Shown: in pieces, positions 6,186 to 41,910 of the stretch
Layout of the letters: every line of letters starts with the position of its first letter
Numbering within the stretch: position 1 is the stretch's first letter
Sequence record: PV357172.2
Length of the DNA stretch: 64,000 bases
Source: a phage
Direction: 5' to 3' (one strand)
The notes under the pieces: model-generated
What the model was told of the DNA's origin: nothing
What the model saw: only the letters and a program-made list of their open reading frames with translations
The model's database searches: none
Position numbers and translations under genes: made by a program

Positions 6186-6953
6186 TTATTCAGCAGCCGC
6201 AGCTTTTGCATCCAGTTTAGCACGCTTAGCGGCACCATCATAGTCCTTAGCAACCAGACCACGACGAGACAGCATAGATTTAACACCGCGCTCAGATTTA
6301 CCAGTTTTCTCAGCGATCTCAGCAACAGTCATGTTAACCAGATCCAGACCTTCTAACAGATCTTCACGAGTTTTAGCACTCGAGGTTTCCTGTACCGGCA
6401 TAGCGGCGATACGACCTTCACGAAGCAGACTCAGAGCTTTACCACGGATCTGCTTGATATTACGACCGAAGTGAGCAGCGATAGCTTCAATAGTAGCACC
6501 AGCAACAACCTGATTAACAAAATCAGTTTCTTCATCCGGAGTGAAGGAACGAACAGCAGCAGCTTTTTCAGTTGGTTTAACAGAAGCGGTCATTTCCAGA
6601 CTCAGGATCTTACCCTGTACCTGCTTAGCACCGAACTGACCACCAGCTACAGCAGCAGCGATTTCAGCATAGGTATACTGACCAGCATGAGCGTTCAGGA
6701 AATCAACCAGTTCAGCTTCCTGCTCAGGAGTCCACGGAGATTTCTGCACTTCGTTAGCTTTCTGTACTTCAAAACCTTCTTTACGCAGTTTAGAGCCAAC
6801 AGAGCGGGCAGTAACATCTTTGCCAGTTTCAGCAGCCAGTTCAGCAGCAATAGCAGCTACTTGTTCTTGAGAGATTACAGCAACACCCAGAGCAGTGGCT
6901 TTTGCTTTCAGAGACTCGGTTACACCTTCTACGTTCCAGTTCAGTTTAGACAT
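6186..6953 (-). CDS. DNA-binding protein with three HTH-like repeats
   Basis: Three internal repeats (TYAEIAAAVAGG, TIEAIAAHFGRN, TVAEIAEKTGKS); GC-rich, strongly E. coli-like codon bias suggesting high expression. Confidence 0.5.
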   Translation of the reverse strand: MSKLNWNVEGVTESLKAKATALGVAVISQEQVAAIAAELAAETGKDVTARSVGSKLRKEGFEVQKANEVQKSPWTPEQEAELVDFLNAHAGQYTYAEIAAAVAGGQFGAKQVQGKILSLEMTASVKPTEKAAAVRSFTPDEETDFVNQVVAGATIEAIAAHFGRNIKQIRGKALSLLREGRIAAMPVQETSSAKTREDLLEGLDLVNMTVAEIAEKTGKSERGVKSMLSRRGLVAKDYDGAAKRAKLDAKAAAAE

Positions 6954-7728
6954 TATTATTTTTCTCCAATAGTTCTTTAATCGACAGGATTTCTATCCCA
7001 TTCGTTTCGGCTTTCTTATAAGATGAGGAAGAACGTTTTGATTCATCCTCACAGATCAGGTATTTGACGTCTTTGGTAACGGATTTCTTAACCGTATATC
7101 CTAGACCTTCTAAATAGTTTGTTGCATCCGTTCTATTTGCAAAATCTTGCAAAGATCCGGTAATACATACCGTTATTCCGTTTGGTTGGGCTACTAGACC
7201 ATCAGTGATGATGACCTCAGCTTTAGCACCTTTAATACCAGTTGTGAATTTCCACGGTAATTCGATAACATCCTTGCCTTGTGGGGAATTTAGCCAGGCT
7301 TTATAATTTTCTCCAGCCTTGCCGTCAGCCTTCACATCATGGAAGCTAGTGCAATTTTGGGATAATTTCTTTGCTGCAACCTCTCCGATTAGAGGGATTC
7401 CTAAAGAACCGAGAACTGAACCAAAGTCAATGTCTCCGCGAACTTTAGTATTTAATTCGCTAATTAACTTAGCGGCAACCTTGCTACCCACGGCTCTAAC
7501 CAAATCTTCTTCGGTTAGGTAAAATAGTTCTGAAATCTTCGTCAGCTCCAGCTTCTCAATAGTTTTTGGACCAAAGCCCTTTAACTTCATTTTTGAACAG
7601 AAGTTCTCAATTAACTTACTTGATTGCGCTGGACAGTTGGACTTATTCCGACAAAATAATTGTCCGTTGACAAGATCTAGCTTAGAACCACAAGAGGGAC
7701 ATTGTGTTGGAATTTCGATTTTCATCAA
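6946..7728 (-). CDS. NAD-dependent DNA ligase, C-terminal subunit (Zn finger, HhH, BRCT)
   Basis: N-terminal CPSCGSKL...CRNKSNC zinc finger, HhH-like GFGPKTIEKL, BRCT-like C-terminus. Confidence 0.75.
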   Translation of the reverse strand: MMKIEIPTQCPSCGSKLDLVNGQLFCRNKSNCPAQSSKLIENFCSKMKLKGFGPKTIEKLELTKISELFYLTEEDLVRAVGSKVAAKLISELNTKVRGDIDFGSVLGSLGIPLIGEVAAKKLSQNCTSFHDVKADGKAGENYKAWLNSPQGKDVIELPWKFTTGIKGAKAEVIITDGLVAQPNGITVCITGSLQDFANRTDATNYLEGLGYTVKKSVTKDVKYLICEDESKRSSSSYKKAETNGIEILSIKELLEKNNNV

Positions 7729-7929
7729 ATTTCTTCCTTATCAATTTATATAAATATTATAGCAAGTATTTAAGCATTTAGCAACTACAATTTTAACTAA
7801 CTTTGCTTACCCTCGCCATAACTTTCTATCCCTCAACTGAATGATAATAGTATATACCTAAGCGGCGAAAATGTCAATAACCACTTTATAATTCCGATAT
7901 GGTAGATGGGTAGCAAAGGGTTACATATA

Positions 7930-8904
7930 TTAATCGTATACTCGCTCTACTATGCACGGGATTACACCACCAGCACGAATCACTCGAATCTGGCAACCGA
8001 TCTCTAGATCAAGAGAGTTAATATAATCAACGTTATTAAGAGTCGCTTTAACAATTGTAGCGTCATCAATAATTACCGGTTCGAAATATCCAACAGGAGT
8101 TACTTTACCAGAAGCCCCTACCTGCCACTCAACTTTGAGAAGAGTTGTAATTTCGCCTTCTTCATCTTGTTTAATTGCATAAGCACCGCGAGGATGTTTA
8201 TTCGTCCAACCTTCACGGAAGAATTTATTGTTGTCATTAATACGAACAACTTTACCATCCGTTGGATACCAGTTGAAGTAGTTTTTAATGTTCATTACAG
8301 TGATGAAATCTTCGTTAGCCAACCAAGACATATCATCTAAATAAGAACCTGTAATACCTACAGAATCTTCTGAACACTGAATACCATAAGCTACAAAGAT
8401 TAATCCACCTTCCGCAATACGTTCGATGAAATCATCTTCTTCTTTTAAGTTAATAGCACCTGAAGCGTAGTTACGTTTGTTTTCTACTTCTTTAGTGATA
8501 AGAACTTCACCCGTGATTTGAGTTGGTACTTTTTGGGAAATCTTTTTCGGGATGTTCAGCAATCTAACGTTGCTTGTGACATCATTCCCTAGAATACCAT
8601 TACCACGAGTTAACGCTTGAACAAACGTTCCGTCGATGTACAACAGAGAAATTGCGCAACCGTCTAGCTTATCAGTTTCTACGTCTTCAAGAGTAGTGAA
8701 GGGGGCTTTATCACCACGATCGAAGTAAACTTTTTGTAAAGAATACATACGATACAGATGTGGGATATCACCTTTCGGGCCGATAGCATCTTCCGCCGTT
8801 GGGAAACGTTTTAACAGACGGTCATATTCTTCATCAGATATTAAAGACATACCCTGATAATATGCTTCTTGACAGCGTTTAATAAAGTCTTTTACATTAG
8901 TCAT
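7930..8904 (-). CDS. NAD-dependent DNA ligase, N-terminal adenylation/OB subunit
   Basis: KxDG adenylation motif TDKLDGCAISLLY; 324-aa ORF directly upstream of the Zn-finger/BRCT subunit. Confidence 0.75.
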   Translation of the reverse strand: MTNVKDFIKRCQEAYYQGMSLISDEEYDRLLKRFPTAEDAIGPKGDIPHLYRMYSLQKVYFDRGDKAPFTTLEDVETDKLDGCAISLLYIDGTFVQALTRGNGILGNDVTSNVRLLNIPKKISQKVPTQITGEVLITKEVENKRNYASGAINLKEEDDFIERIAEGGLIFVAYGIQCSEDSVGITGSYLDDMSWLANEDFITVMNIKNYFNWYPTDGKVVRINDNNKFFREGWTNKHPRGAYAIKQDEEGEITTLLKVEWQVGASGKVTPVGYFEPVIIDDATIVKATLNNVDYINSLDLEIGCQIRVIRAGGVIPCIVERVYD

Positions 8905-16464: not shown

Positions 16465-16893
16465 TTAAGCAGTTAAATCTGGGATCATATACCCGAAACG
16501 TCGAAGTTTCTGAATCCCCTCATTTACTTCTTCCGGTGAATAAGACCAACCATAACGTTCATTAACCTGAAAACCAGGAGATTCACTAGTTTTATAGTTA
16601 ACAACTAGGCGATGCTTAGCAGGCATAAACAGCTTATAATTTAACGCAAAAACTAAGCCCATTTCATCTAACTCTTTCCAGCCTACAATCTCTTCAAGAC
16701 CCTCCTCTACCTGAACAATTAAACCAATACAGGGGGCCTCATCAATATCATCTTTAAAAGCAAAGGAGATTTCATTATTCTCACACCATATTTTCAAGGA
16801 GTTAATAGCCTCATTATACAGGCTAGCTGGGAGAGTACGCCAAAAGTTAATCAAAATTGGATTAGCTTCTTTAGAGAATACATTATTGAACAT
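16465..16893 (-). CDS. hypothetical protein, tandem paralog B (142 aa)
   Basis: Paralog of 16063-16455. Confidence 0.5.
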   Translation of the reverse strand: MFNNVFSKEANPILINFWRTLPASLYNEAINSLKIWCENNEISFAFKDDIDEAPCIGLIVQVEEGLEEIVGWKELDEMGLVFALNYKLFMPAKHRLVVNYKTSESPGFQVNERYGWSYSPEEVNEGIQKLRRFGYMIPDLTA

Positions 16894-16895
16894 AT

Positions 16896-17402
16896 TTACA
16901 CCTTAAATTGTTGTAAGGATTTACACATTTCAAGATCTGGGCTAAATTCTAGCATATAGCTAACAGCTTTTAAATCTTGAAGATTTATCCCAGTCCTACC
17001 GTTGACTATAACCGTTGGATACTGATACATCATAGCACCCGCATCATCAAGCACACACCAATGTTTGAGCTTATGCTTTTCAACGAAACGAAGAACAGAA
17101 TTACCCCTAGATAATCCACCCCCCGTAAAATCCGTTGTACCAAGAAAACGATCGATAAGACCTAATCCGGTCATAATCTGAACGTTCTCCATCTCATTTC
17201 TAACAGAGAACCAAGATGATACCCCAACAATCATTATCGGAGAAGGACGAATAAAATCCTGAAAAGCCTTGAGAAGCGGTTTGAAAACCCAGTCACTTCC
17301 AAAGAAAATCTTTTCATTATCAGGTGCATGATGGTGGGAGATGCTCGAATTGAGCACCCCATCAATATCTAGAAAAATAATTGGAGTATTACTTATTTCC
17401 AT
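16896..17402 (-). CDS. HAD-superfamily hydrolase-like protein (putative phosphatase/nucleotidase)
   Basis: HAD motif I IIFLDIDGVL near N-terminus. Confidence 0.5.
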   Translation of the reverse strand: MEISNTPIIFLDIDGVLNSSISHHHAPDNEKIFFGSDWVFKPLLKAFQDFIRPSPIMIVGVSSWFSVRNEMENVQIMTGLGLIDRFLGTTDFTGGGLSRGNSVLRFVEKHKLKHWCVLDDAGAMMYQYPTVIVNGRTGINLQDLKAVSYMLEFSPDLEMCKSLQQFKV

Positions 17403-17571
17403 TTTTGTTCCTTTCTAAGAACGTATCATACTCAACCGTATCAACATATATGACGCCATAGTCATCGGATTTATAGTCCATTTCCCATAACTCACATCGA
17501 TAGCACCAACTACCATCTGCCCATACAAATATATCATCGGGATGTGTATATACAGATTTAACTATGGACAT
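17389..17571 (-). CDS. hypothetical protein (60 aa)
   Basis: ORF track; overlaps flanking genes by 14 nt. Confidence 0.35.
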   Translation of the reverse strand: MSIVKSVYTHPDDIFVWADGSWCYRCELWEMDYKSDDYGVIYVDTVEYDTFLERNKNGNK

Positions 17572-18394
17572 ATCTGTTTACCTTGCTTCTCGACACATAA
17601 GGTCTACCCTCTAAATGAGCTTCTACACGAGCAATAAAATCAGGATCACTGAAAGCATCTACCGCACCTTTACTCCAGTAAGGGATACCACGTTCTTCCA
17701 GCTGGTACATCTCACTACGAGTCATACCTTGATAGCCCGGTTCTGCCGCTAGGCCACTATCATAGTAGTTAACAACCATAAGTTTCGCAGCAGTCAAATT
17801 AAGAACAGGAAATAATTCCCAGTAGAAGTTAATTACTTGGTTAGAGCAACCAACCACAATGATCATATCTTGACTGGTAATACCATCAAAAACATTATAC
17901 ATTTCTGCGTATGCAGGAGCATGTTCTCCAAAGAAGATTACATTAGGTTTAACCCATTTATAATCATCTGGATCAATAGAATTATACCCTACATCAATAA
18001 TCCGTTTATTGCTACTATTGTAGCTATCAGCTACAACAACCTCTTTTAAATATCCGTGAATGTGCAGAATGTCACTATGTGGAACACCAGCACGCTCAAT
18101 AAGGTCATCAACGTTGGTAGTCAAGTTTACTACTTGACCTGGGTATTGTTTATACCATTCACCAATACGCAAATGCGCAAGATTGGGTTCAACAGTTTTT
18201 AGCTCTTCACGACGCTTGTTGTAAAACATATGGGTTTTATGATAAAAATTACCACGAAAGGCATGAATATTACATACTTCTTCTAGATCATAATCATCCC
18301 ACAATGCTTTACCACTAGCAGTATCAGTACGGAAGGCTCGTACACCACTTTCAACGCTCAAACCTGCACCGCTAATAATAATTAATCTACGCAC
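17558..18394 (-). CDS. Sir2-family (sirtuin-like) NAD-binding protein
   Basis: Sirtuin motifs ISGAGLSVESGVRAFR, TTNVDDLIERAG, HIHGYL, FFGE, VVGCS; no obvious Cys4 zinc ribbon. Confidence 0.65.
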   Translation of the reverse strand: MRRLIIISGAGLSVESGVRAFRTDTASGKALWDDYDLEEVCNIHAFRGNFYHKTHMFYNKRREELKTVEPNLAHLRIGEWYKQYPGQVVNLTTNVDDLIERAGVPHSDILHIHGYLKEVVVADSYNSSNKRIIDVGYNSIDPDDYKWVKPNVIFFGEHAPAYAEMYNVFDGITSQDMIIVVGCSNQVINFYWELFPVLNLTAAKLMVVNYYDSGLAAEPGYQGMTRSEMYQLEERGIPYWSKGAVDAFSDPDFIARVEAHLEGRPYVSRSKVNRYVHS

Positions 18395-34776: not shown

Positions 34777-35218
34777 GGAAGAGAATATTTTAGATGTTTT
34801 GCGTAGAGCTTTGCAGGATTCTAAGTTTAATGGTTCTGATAAAGAAGTCGCTAAAAGCTATCAGACCATAATCGGGGATCTTCAGCGTATTGATAAAGAT
34901 TTCATCACTTCTGAACAATTTGTGTCTTATCTCAAAGCTCAACTAAAAAGCATTAACCAGATGAAAGCTAAACTTCATGGTCAAGATCTTGATAGTTATA
35001 GCTTGCAGTCCGCTCAGTATGAATACATTCTAAATAAGTGGTTGCAGGAGTATCTGCCTCCTCAGTTATCTGATACTGAGATTCGTAAATACTTTGCAGA
35101 ATTAGTTAAGCTAAACCCTGGAATTACAAAAGGTATGCTGATGAAAGCGATTAAGGAAGAATTTCCTGGGCGTTATGATGGTGGTACTGCTGCTCAGATT
35201 GCTGGCGAATTTAATTAA
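34775..35218 (+). CDS. hypothetical protein (147 aa)
   Basis: ORF track; ATGA start-stop overlap with preceding small ORF. Confidence 0.5.
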   Translation: MEENILDVLRRALQDSKFNGSDKEVAKSYQTIIGDLQRIDKDFITSEQFVSYLKAQLKSINQMKAKLHGQDLDSYSLQSAQYEYILNKWLQEYLPPQLSDTEIRKYFAELVKLNPGITKGMLMKAIKEEFPGRYDGGTAAQIAGEFN

Positions 35219-35478
35219 AAATTTACTTGCTAAATGCTTATAAATTCTGTATAATATATTCATAAATTAGGGAACAGCGAGCCGATTACGCTGAGTGCAG
35301 AATCCCAACCGGAGCGCATTGAATAGAGTCGGTGGGTTAGTTGTAAAACTAGTACACAGGGGGCGGCAATCCCGGTTAGTGGCTAGAACGTGTAAAATGA
35401 GGCGTCTGAAACCTCTCCCCTAAACTCTTCTCTAATTTATAAATAGTGGGGTGTGGAAATCACTTATGTAGTAACACT

Positions 35479-35550
35479 GCCGTCCTAGTATAATTGGTAT
35501 TATCAAGCCGTAACTGGTGGAAGATGTAGGTTCGAATCCTACGGTCGGTA
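35479..35550 (+). tRNA. tRNA-like element (possibly degenerate; anticodon not resolved)
   Basis: T-arm GTAGG-TTCGAAT-CCTAC and a 7-bp acceptor with one mismatch; anticodon stem does not fold cleanly. Confidence 0.3.
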
Positions 35551-36052
35551 AGAACTGGATAACTGATGCTTTTAACGTAAAAGCTTCCGAGGTTAGTTGC
35601 GCACTGCCTAAACCACGCGGTAGTTGGTTCCAGACTAACCAACCAGTCTGCTGAATAGTTTTATTACGATTTAACTATGCCCAGGCTAAAGAAGAACTTT
35701 AGAAGGTATTCTAGGATAGTGAAGTTCTTTCTCCATATCGGAGTAGTTTTTCAAGCTATCCACAAAGTGGGAAATGCTGACATGAGAGATGTCACTAATG
35801 GTGCACAATAGCACAGGTAATTCGCGATAACCCCTGTTGAGTAGCAGCAAAAGGCGGGAAGTCATGACCCCAAGCCTAACCGAGTCCTCAATATACCGCA
35901 GGACATAACCACTAAGTCCCCCTGACTTAAACTGGAAAATAATAGACGTTACTGTATTTTGTCTTGAAATACTTAATGAGTGAGACTTATGACTCTCCCG
36001 GTATCGTCTGTATTTTTAAGAGTTTTTACGAGAGTTCTTAAAAATACTTAAA

Positions 36053-36127
36053 CGGGGTGTAGTCTAAGGGAGAGGCAGGAGTCTTCTAAATTCCTTTATG
36101 CAGGTTCGAATCCTGTCACCTCGGCCA
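36053..36127 (+). tRNA. tRNA-Arg (anticodon TCT)
   Basis: Hand-folded cloverleaf: acceptor CGGGGTG/CACCTCG, anticodon loop CTTCTAA, T-arm GCAGG-TTCGAAT-CCTGT, encoded CCA. Confidence 0.65.
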
Positions 36128-36161
36128 ATTTTATTAACTGTAGCTAAAACAAAGGAAATAT

Positions 36162-37109
36162 ATGTTTAATACTAAAAATATGAAAGAACTGACTTCTGAG
36201 CAGAAAGTAATTCGTACTATTAAACGTTGGGGTATTGGTGCTGTAGTTGGTTTAGCAGGTTTAATCCTAGCTTTTAATTCATATACTGTTGTTCAAGACG
36301 GTACTGTTAAAACCCAGACTTTCCTGGGTAAAGTTGACCCTAGCCCAGTATTACCCGGCTTTCATATTGTAAATCCTTTTGCTTCTTTCGATACTTTTAG
36401 TACTAAAGATATTGCCCTAAAATTAGATAAACTTCAGGTTCCTAGCCAGGATAAGTTTAAATCCACTGTTGACCTGACTGTTATGTTGCAGTTTGATGGT
36501 TCTAAGGCACCAATTAACCGTATTAACGCAGGTACTCAGGATCAGGCGTTAGACAAGTATGTAACTGAAAAATTACTGTCTACTATTCGTGAGTTTGGTA
36601 AGTCTGTACCTAAAGCACAAGATTTGTTTGATGCTAAAATTCAGGCTCAATTGCAAACTGCAATTCAACAGGAAGTTGAAGAGTATGCACGCCCATATGG
36701 TTACACAGTTAAGCAGGTATTCCTTCAGGATATTACTTTGCCACCGGTAATCATGGAACAGGTACAGAATACCAAAGTTCGTGAAGAGCAAGTTAATGCT
36801 GCGAAAGCTGAACTGGCCCGCGTTGAACAAGAAGCGCAGCAAAAGGTTAAACAAGCAGAAGCAGACCGTGAAGCTCGCAACAACCAAGCTATTGCTAATG
36901 AACGTGACGCAGATGCTAAACTGTACGCAGCTAAGAAAGAAGCTGAAGCTAACGCCGCATTGCAACGTACCATTACTCCTGAGATGATTCGCTGGAAGCA
37001 ACTGGAAGTTGAAATGCTTCGTGCTGAAAAATACCAAGGTGGTGTACCGCAAACAGTAGTGGGAACTGGTTACGATGGCCAGATGATCATGGATATGCGT
37101 AATAAGTAA
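36162..37109 (+). CDS. SPFH/band-7 (prohibitin/HflK-like) membrane protein
   Basis: N-terminal TM segment, SPFH-like core, Ala/Glu/Gln-rich coiled-coil tail. Confidence 0.55.
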   Translation: MFNTKNMKELTSEQKVIRTIKRWGIGAVVGLAGLILAFNSYTVVQDGTVKTQTFLGKVDPSPVLPGFHIVNPFASFDTFSTKDIALKLDKLQVPSQDKFKSTVDLTVMLQFDGSKAPINRINAGTQDQALDKYVTEKLLSTIREFGKSVPKAQDLFDAKIQAQLQTAIQQEVEEYARPYGYTVKQVFLQDITLPPVIMEQVQNTKVREEQVNAAKAELARVEQEAQQKVKQAEADREARNNQAIANERDADAKLYAAKKEAEANAALQRTITPEMIRWKQLEVEMLRAEKYQGGVPQTVVGTGYDGQMIMDMRNK

Positions 37110-37145
37110 TATCCGCATGTAATCTCTGAAGTAAGCCCTGTGTTC

Positions 37146-37175
37146 CCTGGAGAGCGCAGGGCTTTTCTGTATTTA
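37146..37175 (+). terminator. rho-independent terminator
   Basis: Hairpin CCCTG-GAGAGCG-CAGGG followed by CTTTTCTGTATTT. Confidence 0.55.
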
Positions 37176-37299
37176 AGGCAAAAGAAAAAGCCCATAAGTT
37201 ATTCAACTAAGGTCTTTAGTATTTAATTCTTTAGAATCATATAATATTATTGCAGCAACAACGTGCTAACCTTAAGTGCCCTGCAATTTTCCTCTAAAA

Positions 37300-37350
37300 A
37301 GTTAAAAAATTCGATTGCTTGAATGCTAAATTCTCTGTATAATATATTTA
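37300..37350 (+). promoter_or_regulatory. sigma70-like strong early promoter
   Basis: TTGCTT at 37315-37320, 17-nt spacer, TGTATAAT ending at 37343. Confidence 0.6.
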
Positions 37351-37373
37351 TAAATTTGAGAGAGGAATCAAAT

Positions 37374-38429
37374 ATGATTAAGACTGGTCTAGTAATTGGT
37401 AAGTTCGCACCATTAACGCGTGGTCATATTAACCTAATAAACACAGCAGCAACTATGTGTGAACGAGTTATTGTTGTAGTTAGTCATGATAATCGTTGGC
37501 TGGATAAGCAGAACACACGTGATCAGGAAGTATTACAGTTAAAGAATCGACTTCGTTGGTTAGAACAAACTTACGCGGATATTGAGCACATTTCGGTAGA
37601 GTACATTATTGAAGATGATATTCCTGAATATCCGAATGGTTGGCCGGAATATGCTAGAATCCTTAATGAAAATTACGGACATTTGCCTGAGATCACCGTT
37701 TTCTCTAGCGAACTAGACTATGATGCAGAATATAAGAAATATCTGCCGAAGTTTGGTCATTATATTGTAGATTCTGATCGGACTCGTGTTCCAATCTCAG
37801 CTACAATGATTCGTAATGATCTTATGAAGTATTGGGAGTTTCTTCCTAGCTTAGTTCGTAAAGATTACGTGCGTAAGGTTGTAATCATTGGGACTGAAAG
37901 CTCGGGAAAGACTACTTTAACAAAATACCTTGCGAAGCTATACAACACTTCGTGGGTAGAAGAATATGGCCGAACGTATTGTGAAGTTGATCTAGTTGGT
38001 AACGAAAATCTACTTACCAGTGAAGATTACAGTAAAATTGCGTTCAGACACAAAGAGCTAGAGTTTGAAGCAGAACGTACTGCAAATAAGATCATGTTTG
38101 TGGATACAAATGCTTTTATTACTGAGTTCTACCACAGACTTTATGAACATAGTAAGAACCCTGTGGTTACAGCAATTGCAAAAGTAGAACATTACGATTT
38201 AGTAATTGTTCTAGCGCCTACTGTCAAGTGGGTAGATGATGATTTACGTATTAACTCCGATCGTTCAATTACTTCTGAACTGTTCGAGCAGATGAAGAAA
38301 GAATTTCCAAATCAGTTCCCTGAAGGGCGTACTGTTTACATCGACTCTCCGGACTACAAAGTTCGTATGGACGAAGCAGTAAACGCAGTAGACTGGCTGA
38401 TTCATCACTTTAACGTTGGAGAGTTTTAA
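37374..38429 (+). CDS. NadR-like bifunctional NMN adenylyltransferase / ribosylnicotinamide kinase
   Basis: N-terminal nucleotidyltransferase motif GKFAPLTRGHINLI; C-terminal P-loop IIGTESSGKTTL. Confidence 0.65.
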   Translation: MIKTGLVIGKFAPLTRGHINLINTAATMCERVIVVVSHDNRWLDKQNTRDQEVLQLKNRLRWLEQTYADIEHISVEYIIEDDIPEYPNGWPEYARILNENYGHLPEITVFSSELDYDAEYKKYLPKFGHYIVDSDRTRVPISATMIRNDLMKYWEFLPSLVRKDYVRKVVIIGTESSGKTTLTKYLAKLYNTSWVEEYGRTYCEVDLVGNENLLTSEDYSKIAFRHKELEFEAERTANKIMFVDTNAFITEFYHRLYEHSKNPVVTAIAKVEHYDLVIVLAPTVKWVDDDLRINSDRSITSELFEQMKKEFPNQFPEGRTVYIDSPDYKVRMDEAVNAVDWLIHHFNVGEF

Positions 38430-38430
38430 T

Positions 38431-39108
38431 ATGACTAACTATCTCGTAAATGACTTTAAAAACTGGAAACCTCTGGAATATCTGTGGCTGCTCATAGCGG
38501 TTGTCTTCATTAGTTTAGCAAACTATAATGGTACAGCTCTAGATTGGGCTACTGCAATAACCAATGTGGTTTGTGTTATTCTGGTTGCAAAAGGACGTGT
38601 TTCCAACTATATTTGGGGCTTAGTGGGTGTTCTTACATATGGTATTACAGCTTTAAACGCAGATCTTTATGGTAACGCTGCACTAAACCTGCTATACTAC
38701 GTTCCTATGCAGTTTTATGGAATGTACTTATGGCATAAAAATAAACCAAGTAATCTGCCAGACGTTCCAACTAAGGTTCTGACTAAAGCTCAGGCTTTAT
38801 TAACTCTTGGGATTCTAGCAGTAGCTACTCTAGGCTATGGCAGCTTCCTCGCTACCACAGCAGATCCGTTCCCAATGCTCGATGCATTTACTGCGGTTGG
38901 TAGTGTAATTGCTATGTGGCTTATGGTCAAGCAGTATGCTGAACAATGGCTAATCTGGATTGCCATTAATATTGGTACTGTATACATTTGGTTTGTAACT
39001 GCTCAGTCTACAGGTGCTTCTTATGCAATCCTAGCAATGTGGCTGGTATTCTTTGGTAACTCTGTACTTGGAGCCTATAAAGGGTACTTTGTACGCGTTA
39101 ACAAATAA
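38431..39108 (+). CDS. PnuC-like nicotinamide riboside transporter
   Basis: Multi-TM protein immediately downstream of NadR-like gene; ATG at 38431 after GGAGAG. Confidence 0.55.
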   Translation: MTNYLVNDFKNWKPLEYLWLLIAVVFISLANYNGTALDWATAITNVVCVILVAKGRVSNYIWGLVGVLTYGITALNADLYGNAALNLLYYVPMQFYGMYLWHKNKPSNLPDVPTKVLTKAQALLTLGILAVATLGYGSFLATTADPFPMLDAFTAVGSVIAMWLMVKQYAEQWLIWIAINIGTVYIWFVTAQSTGASYAILAMWLVFFGNSVLGAYKGYFVRVNK

Positions 39109-39116
39109 AATAGTTA

Positions 39117-39150
39117 TAGCCCTCAAAGCGAGGGCTATTATCCAGAAAAT
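39117..39150 (+). terminator. rho-independent terminator (weak U-tract)
   Basis: Hairpin AGCCCTC-AAAGC-GAGGGCT followed by ATTATCC. Confidence 0.4.
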
Positions 39151-39151
39151 T

Positions 39152-39192
39152 TCACTTGCTAAATGCCGAGATTTTCTGTATAATATATTTAT
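39152..39192 (+). promoter_or_regulatory. sigma70-like promoter driving tRNA transcription
   Basis: TTGCTA at 39156-39161, 17-nt spacer, TGTATAAT ending at 39184; tRNA-Ser begins about 15 nt downstream. Confidence 0.6.
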
Positions 39193-39198
39193 AAATTC

Positions 39199-39290
39199 GG
39201 AAGATTAACCCTAATTGGTAAGGGAGCATCTTGCTAAGTTGCCAGTAGCTGTGGAAACACGGTGTATCGGTTCAAGTCCGATATCTTCCT
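39199..39290 (+). tRNA. tRNA-Ser (anticodon GCT), long variable arm
   Basis: Perfect acceptor GGAAGAT/ATCTTCC, anticodon loop TTGCTAA, variable-arm hairpin, T-arm ATCGG-TTCAAGT-CCGAT, encoded CCA. Confidence 0.7.
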
Positions 39291-39298
39291 CCAAATTT

Positions 39299-39373
39299 GG
39301 TTCTCAAGCTCATTTGGTATGAGCCGTCGCCTCATAAGCGAAAGGTAGGTAGGTTCGAATCCTCCGGGAGCCA
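39299..39373 (+). tRNA. tRNA with CAT anticodon (Met or Ile2)
   Basis: Acceptor GGTTCTC/GGGAGCC with G-U pairs, D-stem GCTC/GAGC, anticodon loop CTCATAA, T-loop TTCGAAT, encoded CCA. Confidence 0.65.
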
Positions 39374-39393
39374 CCAGATAACTAGGAGACTTT

Positions 39394-39582
39394 ATGTCAC
39401 GCTTTCACGAAATTAAGCAAGAACTGGAAGAACTCGCCTGTCCTGAATGCTTTGGGACAGGTGAATGGAATGATGCTGAACCCGGGGATACGCGGTTTAA
39501 CACTTACGTTTGCACTCACTGTGAAGGTACTGGTGTAAACCCTCTTTACACTATTTCTCTTTTTGTAGGGGTTGCTAAATAA
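39394..39582 (+). CDS. small zinc-ribbon protein (62 aa)
   Basis: CPECFGTGEW...CTHCEGTG DnaJ-like Cys motifs. Confidence 0.45.
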   Translation: MSRFHEIKQELEELACPECFGTGEWNDAEPGDTRFNTYVCTHCEGTGVNPLYTISLFVGVAK

Positions 39583-39588
39583 TGCACT

Positions 39589-39936
39589 TTGAAGATGATG
39601 AAAAAAGAAGCGTTCTACACTGTCCCAGCAATTAATCTGCTCGGTACTGTACTATTTCAGATTAAGTTCTACCTGCGAGACGACTACACTGAAGTGGTAA
39701 ACGCTATTGTACCTGAGTTCTTCGTAAATAATTTCCAAAAGGACTTTAAGTTCTTTATTGATGATGTTTACGATGGTGTGGTTGATCCGGCAGTAGCTCC
39801 AGCTATATACAATGTATTTAATTCTCTGCCAGATCTAGATTTTGATCTAGGACTTATTGAGTCTGGTGAGATTATCTGGGCACTTAATGTTCCAGTGACT
39901 GGATTCCCTGGTTGGCTGCAAGGTTACGAACTCTAA
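39589..39936 (+). CDS. hypothetical protein (115 aa)
   Basis: ORF track. Confidence 0.45.
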   Translation: MKMMKKEAFYTVPAINLLGTVLFQIKFYLRDDYTEVVNAIVPEFFVNNFQKDFKFFIDDVYDGVVDPAVAPAIYNVFNSLPDLDFDLGLIESGEIIWALNVPVTGFPGWLQGYEL

Positions 39937-39944
39937 CAAAATTT

Positions 39945-40027
39945 GGATCTGTGGTGGAATTGGCAATACACACCATGCTTAAAACGTGGCGCTTAAATGA
40001 TTGAGGGTTCGAGCCCCTCCAGATCCA
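39945..40027 (+). tRNA. tRNA-Leu (anticodon TAA), long variable arm
   Basis: Perfect acceptor GGATCTG/CAGATCC, anticodon arm CCATG-CTTAAAA-CGTGG, T-arm GAGGG-TTCGAGC-CCCTC, encoded CCA. Confidence 0.7.
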
Positions 40028-40182
40028 CCAAATTAAGGAAGTAAAAATGAAATCTATTAAGAAAGCACTGCGTAAATTTATGTATTGTCGTTTTCATAGC
40101 ATCAAGGCTTCAACTAATGGTACTACTTACGATCGCTATGATCCTAAGTTTGGCTTACATTCTAAATAACTGGAGAAAACAA

Positions 40183-40389
40183 ATGGCTAATCCTGAAATT
40201 ACGGCACAACGCTTTATGCTGAAAGGAATTATTGCTGAAGCAGGCATGACAGAAGAAGTTGCAGATTTTCAAAAGCAATTCCTCAATATTCTCACTCAAG
40301 CCAAAGAGCTAGGAGAGAAAGAACATGGCGCGGCTATTATGGCAATCACATTGGTTGGGCTTGATCTGGCTGAAGAATCAGGAGTTTAA
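40183..40389 (+). CDS. hypothetical protein (about 68 aa)
   Basis: ATG at 40183 after GGAGAAAACAA; track ORF starts upstream. Confidence 0.45.
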   Translation: MANPEITAQRFMLKGIIAEAGMTEEVADFQKQFLNILTQAKELGEKEHGAAIMAITLVGLDLAEESGV

Positions 40390-41257: not shown

Positions 41258-41839
41258 ATGCACGGAATATCCTTACCAATTCCAGGGTTTGAGGAGTACT
41301 TAGTAAGTTTGGATGGGTTAGTATTTAGTATCAAATCAAACAAAATACTAACCCCAATAACCAGTAATTACGGATACTTATCTATACGTCTCCATAAAAA
41401 TGGTCAACAGAGAAATACCGGTGTACATAGGATTTTAGCATGTGCATTTAAGAAATTACCAAGTCTAGACTCTGAACTAGAAGTTGACCATATTAACACA
41501 GACATTACTTATTGGGGTCTTAATAACTTACAAGTGCTCACAAAAGAGCAGCATCTAGAAAAGACTTTAAAAGATAAAGGATTTAGTAAACTAAACCATG
41601 ATAATTGTTGTAAGGATTGTGGTAAAGCTATTTCTTTAAAAGCTGAAAAATGTCAGGAGTGCTCTTCACATAAACCAAAAGATATCTCTATAACTAAAGA
41701 AATAATCGAGGTTACAGTAAGAGAGCTAGGCTGGTCAGGTGCAGGGAGAAAGTTAAGTTATTCAGATAATGGGTTGCGTAAAAGATACACTTCTTTAGGA
41801 GGCAATCCTAAAGAACTTAAAAAGTTAAAGGTACTATAG
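41258..41839 (+). CDS. HNH endonuclease with zinc finger and C-terminal HTH
   Basis: HNH region ELEVDHINTDITYWGLNNLQVLTKEQH; CKDCG...CQEC zinc finger; paralog of 43929-44513. Confidence 0.65.
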   Translation: MHGISLPIPGFEEYLVSLDGLVFSIKSNKILTPITSNYGYLSIRLHKNGQQRNTGVHRILACAFKKLPSLDSELEVDHINTDITYWGLNNLQVLTKEQHLEKTLKDKGFSKLNHDNCCKDCGKAISLKAEKCQECSSHKPKDISITKEIIEVTVRELGWSGAGRKLSYSDNGLRKRYTSLGGNPKELKKLKVL

Positions 41840-41901
41840 TCTAACGGTTAGGATACTCCCCTGTCACGGGAGAGGTAGGGTTTCGATTACCCTTAGTACC
41901 G
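41830..41901 (+). tRNA. tRNA-Asp (anticodon GTC)
   Basis: Perfect acceptor GGTACTA/TAGTACC, anticodon arm CTCCC-CTGTCAC-GGGAG, T-arm AGGGT-TTCGATT-ACCCT, CCA; 5' end overlaps HNH stop codon. Confidence 0.7.
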
Positions 41902-41910
41902 CCAAATTAT

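What the first reader, a model, noticed from the sequence alone, without database searches (positions are those of the whole stretch)
37300..39150. Phage-encoded NAD salvage pair: NadR-like enzyme plus PnuC-like transporter in one operon
One promoter-to-terminator unit encodes a bifunctional NMN adenylyltransferase / ribosylnicotinamide kinase-like protein and a PnuC-like membrane transporter. Together these would import nicotinamide riboside and convert it to NAD+. The same genome segment carries a NAD-dependent DNA ligase and a Sir2-like protein. A phage-borne NAD+ rebuilding route is a plausible counter to NAD-depleting host defences or a way to sustain NAD-dependent ligation; I cannot tell from sequence whether this exact pairing has been characterised.
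Basis: partly seen in the sequence, partly recalled or inferred. Interest (0 to 1): 0.75.

Follow-up and report, generated by a model that had tools for sequence, protein, structure and literature searches.

The report
Phage NadR–PnuC NAD salvage operon
A T5-like phage carries a two-gene unit for a vitamin B3 (nicotinamide riboside) importer and the enzyme that turns that vitamin into NAD+; the genes are real, but the pair is already annotated in hundreds of related phages and was already proposed in 2024 as a phage NAD+-rebuilding route.

Summary
Window 37309-39138 (+) is one compact transcription unit in a T5-like phage (Epseptimavirus-like). It has a T5-type early promoter, nadR (37374-38429, 351 aa), pnuC (38431-39108, 225 aa, starting 1 nt after the nadR stop) and a hairpin.

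NadR has an NMN adenylyltransferase domain and a ribosylnicotinamide kinase domain, with all catalytic motifs present. It lacks the N-terminal DNA-binding domain of enterobacterial NadR. PnuC passes the curated nicotinamide riboside transporter models. The Sir2-like gene and the split NAD-dependent ligase are also in the window.

The most likely mechanism is that PnuC lets nicotinamide riboside in, the kinase domain traps it as NMN, and the adenylyltransferase domain makes NAD+. This would happen early in infection and free of host NadR regulation. That mechanism is inferred from homology.

The pair is not novel:
- About 200 Epseptimavirus genomes carry it at over 95% protein identity, already annotated as such.
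- Osterman et al. 2024 named the phage NadR–PnuC operon as a likely but unexamined NAD+ reconstitution pathway.
- PDB entries 9X6F/9X6H hold a protein 99% identical to this NadR.

Phage T5 has the ligase and Sir2 but no nadR–pnuC, so the cassette is accessory. Its role against host defences is still untested in the literature I could search.

Interest is low to moderate.

The parts
37133..37164 (+). Intrinsic terminator that closes the upstream SPFH/Band7 lipoprotein gene (36162-37109) and isolates the nadR-pnuC unit.
   Evidence: Terminator scan. RNA fold gives -22.9 kcal/mol, z -5.2, followed by UUUUCUGUAUUU. The stem keeps pairing through compensatory changes relative to beppo, 1-23 and bobsandoy.
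37315..37356 (+). T5-type early promoter: -35 TTGCTT (37315-37320), 17-nt spacer, -10 TATAAT (37338-37343), then a conserved A/T-rich downstream block.
   Evidence: Sequence read directly. The 24-mer TTCTGTATAATATATTTATAAATT matches at 37333-37356 with 1 mismatch and occurs 11 times in the window against 0 expected. The region is 100% conserved in three relatives.
37374..38429 (+). nadR: a 351-aa bifunctional NMN adenylyltransferase / ribosylnicotinamide kinase with no HTH domain.
   Evidence: Family matches: Pfam PF01467 and PF13521; NCBIfam NF005988 at 250 bits (cutoff 201), aligned to model positions 54-407 of 411; PHROG 3462 at 1e-151; PDB 9X6F/9X6H about 99% identical and 1LW7 at 6.8e-53. 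Motifs in alignment A1: GKFAPLTRGH, YPNGW, ISATMIR, GTESSGKT, FVDTN, R292 and R297.
38431..39108 (+). pnuC: a 225-aa nicotinamide riboside transporter, probably translationally coupled to nadR (TAA, 1 nt, ATG; GGAG 9 nt upstream).
   Evidence: Family matches: PF04973 at 2.6e-43; TIGR01528 at 118 bits against a cutoff of 42; PHROG 1880 at 1.7e-74; PDB 4QTN at 1.2e-31 over nearly full length. Hydropathy shows 7 clear hydrophobic segments. The KGRVSNY and WLIWIAIN motifs are present. The gene junction was read directly.
39116..39138 (+). Hairpin ending the unit. It is a probable, possibly leaky or bidirectional, terminator. The next early promoter (39156-39197) and tRNA-Ser follow.
   Evidence: -14.8 kcal/mol, z -5.1, weak U-tract on the + strand. 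The stem is conserved and the loop varies in relatives.
17558..18394 (-). Context only: Sir2 family protein, an NAD+ consumer.
   Evidence: PF02146 at 8.2e-25. It is 94% identical to T5.102.
6946..8904 (-). Context only: split NAD-dependent DNA ligase. The adenylation and OB-fold part is at 7930-8904 and the HhH and BRCT part at 6946-7728. The enzyme consumes NAD+ and releases NMN.
   Evidence: PF01653, PF03120 and PF00533. It is 87% identical to T5 ligA.

Best explanation
This is the nadR-pnuC accessory cassette of Epseptimavirus-type T5-like phages, a self-contained nicotinamide riboside (NR) salvage route to NAD+.

Proposed mechanism:
1. A strong phage early promoter transcribes both genes as one mRNA, with no riboswitch and no HTH-based feedback.
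2. PnuC inserts in the inner membrane and lets NR diffuse in.
3. The C-terminal kinase domain of NadR phosphorylates NR with ATP to NMN, trapping it in the cell.
4. The N-terminal adenylyltransferase domain joins NMN and ATP into NAD+ and PPi.
5. The same adenylyltransferase step can also re-use NMN released by the phage's own NAD-dependent ligase.

Net effect: the infected cell's NAD+ pool is topped up at a time when the host can no longer de-repress its own NAD genes. This would help when NAD+ is drained by phage enzymes or by NAD-depleting defence systems, provided NR or NMN is available.

Shown here: the gene identities, motifs, operon anatomy, conservation and accessory status. Inferred: the substrates, the flux, the consequences of lost regulation and the selective benefit.
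For: Family membership of both proteins at curated thresholds.

Near-identity of NadR to a solved protein named nicotinamide-nucleotide adenylyltransferase (9X6F/9X6H), plus clear homology to H. influenzae, L. lactis and other NadR structures and to the N. mucosa PnuC structure.

All catalytic motifs of both NadR domains are conserved across 18 homologues.

Operon anatomy:
- Dedicated early-type promoter repeat, 11 copies against 0 expected.
- Terminator upstream and hairpin downstream.
- 1-nt stop-start junction between the genes.
- No Rfam riboswitch in the region.

The same NadR-next-to-PnuC arrangement recurs in unrelated phages:
- A T4-like contig, L007.
- Yersinia jumbo phage fHe-Yen9-03, Erwinia phage pEp_SNUABM_01 and 114-kb Vibrio phages (coordinates).
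- By contrast, the closest cellular NadR is not next to pnuC.

G+C content equals that of the phage. About 200 Epseptimavirus records carry the pair at over 95% protein identity.

The same hypothesis appears in Osterman et al. 2024 and in the survey by Iyer et al. 2022.
Against: - No experiment on this pair was found in the searchable literature.
- TIGR01526 (nadR_NMN_Atrans) scores 266 bits, below its strict cutoff of 341.
- This window's allele has G290D at a nearly invariant glycine at the start of the kinase lid. This could weaken the kinase step.
- The route cannot use nicotinamide or ADP-ribose, the products of NAD-depleting defences, so its value as a counter-defence depends on external NR.
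- Pnu-family transporters with other substrates exist (from my knowledge of the family: thiamine, riboflavin).
Confidence: 0.8

Rival explanations
1. Housekeeping role rather than counter-defence. The cassette would exist mainly to feed the phage's own NAD consumers (split LigA/LigB ligase, Sir2), chiefly by recycling ligase-derived NMN directly to NAD+. NR import would be a supplement.
For: The ligase and Sir2 are in the same genome. From established enzymology, NAD-dependent ligases release NMN, which is the direct substrate of the NadR adenylyltransferase domain. T5-type DNA is nicked and replicates massively (T5 annotation).
Against: Phage T5 carries the same ligase (87% identity) and Sir2 (94%) but no NadR or PnuC anywhere in its genome. 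The cassette is therefore dispensable for these enzymes. It sits in a variable slot that holds other genes in T5. This role is not mutually exclusive with the main explanation.
Confidence: 0.3
2. The allele in this particular phage is impaired or decaying. G290D in the kinase lid would cripple NR phosphorylation, leaving at most the NMN adenylyltransferase activity.
For: Glycine occupies this position in 16 of 17 aligned relatives, in beppo, 1-23 and bobsandoy, and in the PDB protein. Only this window has Asp (codon GAT against GGT/GGG). The position maps to the start of the lid region defined for L. lactis NadR (PMC7221760).
Against: One natural homologue (P0043) has Lys there. The reading frames of both genes are intact and all catalytic residues are present. 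PnuC is also intact.
Confidence: 0.1
3. Different substrates. The Pnu-type transporter and the kinase/adenylyltransferase would handle another riboside or vitamin, such as nicotinic acid riboside, thiamine or a deoxynucleoside, rather than NR/NMN.
For: From my knowledge of the Pnu family, it includes transporters for other vitamins. Substrate cannot be read from sequence alone. TIGR01526 is below its cutoff.
Against: The equivalog-level PnuC model is passed about threefold over its cutoff. The NR-type motifs are conserved against 4QTN. The operon partner is NadR-type with a YPNGW nicotinamide-recognition region. The PDB depositors named the protein an NMN adenylyltransferase.
Confidence: 0.05
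4. Regulator. As some GenBank records label it ('NadR transcriptional regulator'), the protein would repress host NAD biosynthesis genes.
For: Annotation in records such as phage 1-23 and SE3.
Against: The protein starts 8 residues before the GKFAP motif. It aligns only to positions 54-407 of the 411-position NadR model, so the HTH domain is absent.
Confidence: 0.02

Closest known systems
nadR-pnuC cassette of Epseptimavirus phages (EPS7, bobsandoy, beppo, SE24, and the BASEL phages GreteKellenberger, IrmaTschudi and SuperGirl)
   Same: Same genes, order, promoter and position between the SPFH lipoprotein gene and tRNA-Ser. NadR is 98-99% and PnuC about 97% identical at the protein level.
   Different: The DNA is only about 92-93% identical overall. 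This window has private substitutions, including NadR G290D. It also lacks the small 98-aa gene that follows pnuC in beppo and bobsandoy.
Bacterial NR salvage: PnuC plus NadR of Haemophilus influenzae, Salmonella and E. coli (structures 1LW7, 4QTN, 6GYE)
   Same: Same two-step chemistry and same domain architecture for the enzymatic part. Both proteins are full-length homologues.
   Different: There is no HTH repressor domain. The phage PnuC is not the enterobacterial subtype (NF011926 scores 67 bits against a cutoff of 335). The two genes are fused into one early phage operon. The closest cellular NadR (56% identity) is not next to pnuC.
NARP2 / Vibrio phage KVP40 NadV-NatV (Nampt plus Nmnat)
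   Same: It is a phage-encoded two-gene route ending in an NMN adenylyltransferase step that makes NAD+.
   Different: NARP2 makes NMN from nicotinamide and PRPP, so it can reuse a defence cleavage product. The NadR-PnuC route makes NMN from imported NR. The unit contains no Nampt.
NARP1 (Adps plus Namat; Osterman et al. 2024)
   Same: The proposed purpose is the same: restoring NAD+ during infection.
   Different: The chemistry is unrelated (ADPR to ADPR-PP to NAD+ using nicotinamide) and so are the protein families. NARP1 has been experimentally shown to counter SIR2-HerA and other systems. NadR-PnuC was explicitly 'not examined'.

Membership tests
NadR (bifunctional NMNAT/RNK enzyme) | N-terminal nucleotidyltransferase domain with the GxFxPx[H/T]xGH and ISxTxxR motifs | tested here: met
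   GKFAPLTRGH (residues 9-18) and ISATMIR (141-147) are present. G9, K10, F11, P13, G17, H18 and R147 are invariant in 18 homologues. Pfam PF01467 at 3.8e-07.
NadR (bifunctional NMNAT/RNK enzyme) | C-terminal P-loop kinase domain: Walker A, Walker B Asp and a lid with Arg residues | tested here: met
   GTESSGKT (173-180), FVDTN (D244), R292 and R297 are present. PF13521 at 6e-31. Motif positions follow L. lactis NadR. Caveat: G290D at the start of the lid.
NadR (bifunctional NMNAT/RNK enzyme) | Curated whole-protein HMM thresholds | tested here: inconclusive
   NF005988 scores 250.2 bits against a cutoff of 201 and is met. TIGR01526 scores 266.1 bits against a cutoff of 341.15 and is not met. 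PHROG 3462 at 1e-151.
Trifunctional enterobacterial NadR (repressor) | N-terminal HTH DNA-binding domain | tested here: not met
   The alignment covers model positions 54-407 of 411. The protein begins 8 residues before the GKF motif.
NadR (bifunctional NMNAT/RNK enzyme) | Measured NR kinase and NMN adenylyltransferase activity | not testable with these tools
   The only pointer is that a 99%-identical protein is deposited as 'Nicotinamide-nucleotide adenylyltransferase' (9X6F/9X6H). No paper was found for it.
PnuC (nicotinamide riboside transporter) | Curated HMM thresholds | tested here: met
   PF04973 scores 148.4 bits against a cutoff of 27.3. TIGR01528 (equivalog) scores 118.4 bits against a cutoff of 42.45.
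PnuC (nicotinamide riboside transporter) | Polytopic 7-8 TM fold homologous over its full length to solved PnuC, with conserved KGxxSNY and WxxWxxxN motifs | tested here: met
   4QTN at 1.2e-31, with residues 14-220 aligned to 12-225. Hydropathy shows 7 strong hydrophobic segments, and both motifs are present. That these motifs line the NR site is recalled from the structure paper and was not tested here.
Enterobacterial (host-type) PnuC subfamily | NF011926 threshold | tested here: not met
   67.1 bits against a cutoff of 335. The gene is not a recent copy of the host gene.
PnuC (nicotinamide riboside transporter) | NR as the transported substrate | not testable with these tools
   Inferred from the equivalog match and from the NadR operon partner.
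NARP1 / NARP2 phage NAD+ reconstitution pathways | Adps plus Namat (NARP1), or Nampt plus Nmnat (NARP2) | tested here: not met
   The unit contains only NadR and PnuC. Osterman et al. treat NadR-PnuC as a separate, unexamined pathway.

The most novel reading that the evidence does not exclude
The cassette would be a third, environment-dependent phage NAD+ restoration strategy. Its benefit would appear only where nicotinamide riboside or NMN is available, for example in the gut. Together with the phage ligase it would form a closed NMN-to-NAD+ loop that makes replication independent of the host NAD pool. The G290D allele in this phage would then mark a lineage shifting from import-dependent salvage towards pure NMN recycling.
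Probability: 0.15. Interest if true: 0.45.

Novelty: already known. Interest (0 to 1): 0.25.

Why it matters
NAD+ depletion is a widespread bacterial anti-phage strategy, and phage routes that rebuild NAD+ decide the outcome of infection. If the NadR-PnuC pair does counter such defences, it would do so by drawing on an external vitamin rather than on the cleavage products. Phage success would then depend on the nutrient environment. That is relevant to choosing therapeutic Salmonella/E. coli phages of the Epseptimavirus group.

The idea is already in print and the genes are routinely annotated. This window adds only a clean anatomical description and a few allele-level details.

Tried and rejected
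- **Literature.** I looked for a paper behind PDB 9X6F/9X6H and for any experimental test of phage NadR-PnuC, using seven full-text searches. None was found. 'NARP3' returns only unrelated uses.
- **Riboswitch.** I looked for an NAD+ or pnuC-motif riboswitch or other RNA element in 35200-40200. Only tRNAs were found, and the 5' UTR is only about 24 nt.
- **Longer ORF start.** I considered the 368-aa ORF start at 37323 and the TTG start at 38416 for pnuC. I rejected both because 37323 lies inside the promoter, and because relatives and the PDB construct use the downstream ATGs.
- **Repressor label.** I considered the 'NadR transcriptional regulator' label and rejected it because there is no HTH domain.
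- **Link to the SPFH gene.** I considered linkage to the upstream SPFH/Band7 gene. I rejected it because a strong terminator and a separate promoter lie between them, and T5 keeps SPFH without nadR-pnuC.
- **Recent host capture.** I considered recent capture from the host. I rejected it because PnuC fails the enterobacterial subfamily model, the closest cellular NadR is only 56% identical, and G+C content is phage-like.
- **Structure prediction.** I did not run it, because a 99%-identical solved structure exists.

Full report
**What the window is.** The window has about 39% G+C and a strand switch near 22 kb. It carries 19 tRNA genes, HNH endonucleases, ribonucleotide reductases, a split NAD-dependent ligase and a Sir2 gene. 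The region 36100-39400 is 92-93% identical in DNA to Salmonella and E. coli phages of the genus Epseptimavirus (Demerecviridae), such as KKP 3953, bobsandoy, SE24 and EPS7. It is therefore a T5-like lytic phage that is not itself in the phage collection searched.

**Observation.** Two co-directional ORFs lie at the stated coordinates.
- The first matches Pfam CTP_transf_like and AAA_28. It also matches the NCBIfam NadR model NF005988 at 250 bits (cutoff 201), aligned to model positions 54-407 of 411, and PHROG 3462 'nicotinamide-nucleotide adenylyltransferase' at 1e-151.
- The second matches Pfam NMN_transporter at 2.6e-43. It also matches the equivalog model TIGR01528 'nicotinamide riboside transporter PnuC' at 118 bits (cutoff 42) and PHROG 1880.
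- Against solved structures, NadR hits H. influenzae NadR 1LW7 (6.8e-53), 8X7F and L. lactis 6GYE. Most tellingly, it hits 9X6F/9X6H, 'Nicotinamide-nucleotide adenylyltransferase', which differs at only 4 of 351 positions.
- PnuC aligns over nearly its whole length to Neisseria mucosa PnuC 4QTN at 1.2e-31.

**Anatomy.**
- The upstream SPFH/Band7 gene (36162-37109) ends in a strong intrinsic terminator at 37133-37164 (-22.9 kcal/mol, z -5.2, U-tract).
- A promoter follows: TTGCTT, 17 nt, TATAAT, then a conserved A/T-rich block.
- Its 24-nt core occurs 11 times in the window with up to 3 mismatches, against none in 100 shuffles. It is identical in three relatives. It belongs to the phage's own early-promoter family. 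T5 annotates many such promoters in the syntenic region.
- The ATG of the 368-aa ORF (37323) lies between the -35 and -10 elements. The true start is therefore ATG 37374, behind a GAGG ribosome-binding site. This gives 351 aa, as annotated in bobsandoy and beppo and as used in the PDB construct.
- The nadR stop codon (TAA, 38427-38429) is followed after one base by the pnuC ATG at 38431, with GGAG 9 nt upstream. This suggests translational coupling.
- After pnuC (stop at 39108) comes a hairpin at 39116-39138 (-14.8 kcal/mol, z -5.1). Its U-tract on the + strand is weak, so termination may be partial. The next copy of the promoter repeat (39156-39197) and tRNA-Ser follow.
- No Rfam family other than tRNA is detected.

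**Protein features.** An alignment of the phage NadR with 17 homologues of 47-98% identity shows the following conserved elements:
- The nucleotidyltransferase signature GKFAPLTRGH. The Thr/His alternative at the first position is normal for this superfamily (from my knowledge of the family).
- YPNGW and ISATMIR.
- Walker A GTESSGKT and Walker B FVDTN.
- Two invariant arginines, R292 and R297, in the region that corresponds to the lid of L. lactis NadR (PMC7221760).

The protein has no N-terminal HTH, so it cannot be the repressor that some GenBank records call it. PnuC has seven clear hydrophobic segments and the KGRVSNY and WLIWIAIN motifs shared with 4QTN. It fails the enterobacterial PnuC subfamily model (67 bits against 335). 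The closest cellular NadR found is only 56% identical and is not next to pnuC. G+C content equals the phage average. The pair is therefore an old resident of phage genomes, not a recent copy of host genes.

**Distribution.**
- NadR homologues occur in 789 of 50,697 phage records and PnuC homologues in 501.
- About 200 Epseptimavirus records carry each protein at over 95% identity.
- The adjacent arrangement recurs in unrelated phages: a T4-like metagenomic contig, Yersinia jumbo phage fHe-Yen9-03, Erwinia phage pEp_SNUABM_01 and 114-kb Vibrio phages (coordinates).
- Phage T5 itself has the SPFH protein (97% identity), Sir2 (94%) and LigA (87%), but a tblastn of its whole genome finds no NadR or PnuC. 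The slot between the SPFH gene and tRNA-Ser(GCU) holds T5.076-T5.079 instead.
- The cassette is thus accessory, while the NAD consumers are core to the group.

**Mechanism.** What is shown is the anatomy and the family membership. From the established biochemistry of PnuC and NadR I infer the following steps:
1. NR enters by facilitated diffusion through PnuC.
2. The kinase domain traps it as NMN.
3. The adenylyltransferase domain converts NMN to NAD+.

The enzyme lacks the HTH domain and is driven by an early phage promoter. The route is therefore uncoupled from host NadR regulation, which matters in a cell whose transcription the phage has shut off. The adenylyltransferase step could also re-use NMN released by the phage's NAD-dependent ligase.

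The route cannot use nicotinamide or ADP-ribose. As a counter to NAD-depleting defences it would therefore work only where NR or NMN is available. This distinguishes it from NARP1 and NARP2.

**What is known.**
- Iyer et al. 2022 list phage NadR among NAD+ synthesis domains.
- Osterman et al. 2024 state that phage NadR genes usually share an operon with PnuC and may form 'yet another pathway'. Their Fig. S3B lists BASEL phages with the operon as 'not examined'.
- A jumbo-phage survey reports pnuC-nadR clusters.
- I found no experimental test and no paper for 9X6F. The deposited structure nevertheless shows that the protein is being studied.

**Verdict.** The finding is already known. The small additions from this analysis are:
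- The corrected start codons.
- The promoter-family assignment.
- The accessory-slot comparison with T5.
- The private G290D substitution at a nearly invariant lid glycine.

Noticed in passing
window 38241-38243 (NadR codon 290): This phage's NadR has Asp (GAT) where 16 of 17 homologues, three close relatives and the PDB protein have Gly (GGT/GGG). The position is in the WVDDGLR motif at the start of the kinase lid. L160 and V271 are also private substitutions. The change could alter kinase activity or could be a sequencing error.
   Followed up: partly
window 39108-39199, compared with L002 3235-3690 and L001 23004-23460: Relatives beppo and bobsandoy carry an extra 297-nt gene between pnuC and tRNA-Ser. 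It encodes 98 aa with a signal-peptide-like N-terminus and has its own copy of the early-promoter repeat. The window lacks it, and the junction falls inside the promoter repeat. This suggests deletion by recombination between promoter copies.
   Followed up: partly
window 11425, 19067 (- strand); 31886, 33212, 34563, 35245, 37333, 39174, 50598, 58110, 58618 (+ strand): A 24-nt promoter core, TTCTGTATAATATATTTATAAATT, occurs 11 times with up to 3 mismatches, against 0 expected by chance. Its orientation follows the strand switch near 22 kb. This is a T5-type early promoter family.
   Followed up: partly
L004 15280-17721 (T5 record 37279-39720), compared with window 37110-39200: In phage T5 the slot between the SPFH lipoprotein gene and tRNA-Ser(GCU) holds T5.076 (Toprim/'primase'-like) and the oppositely transcribed T5.077-T5.079 instead of nadR-pnuC. 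It is a variable accessory slot. T5 has no NadR or PnuC anywhere in its genome.
   Followed up: yes
window 35479-35550 (+): An Rfam tRNA match (35.5 bits, E 7.6e-05) lies here that ARAGORN did not call. It may be a tRNA-like stable RNA or a degenerate tRNA, as annotated in T5.
   Followed up: no
window 16465-18394 (-): Close downstream of the Sir2 gene, on the same strand, lie a HAD_SAK_2 protein (the HAD domain of 'Swiss Army Knife' RNA repair proteins, 7.4e-20) and a DUF7415 protein (5e-36). They may form an NAD/ADP-ribose-linked RNA repair or modification module.
   Followed up: no
phage record OR847496.1 (hit H76): A 2.7-kb record named 'Listeria phage LM 4-11-1' encodes a PnuC 98.7% identical to this one. 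It is probably a mislabelled fragment of an Epseptimavirus and is the closest PnuC match found.
   Followed up: no
window 41258-41839 (+) and 41830-41904 (+): An ORF that lies at the position of a 'hypothetical protein' in bobsandoy, not scanned against any family here, ends 10 nt inside tRNA-Asp. T5 annotates HNH endonuclease genes that overlap tRNA genes in this way.
   Followed up: no
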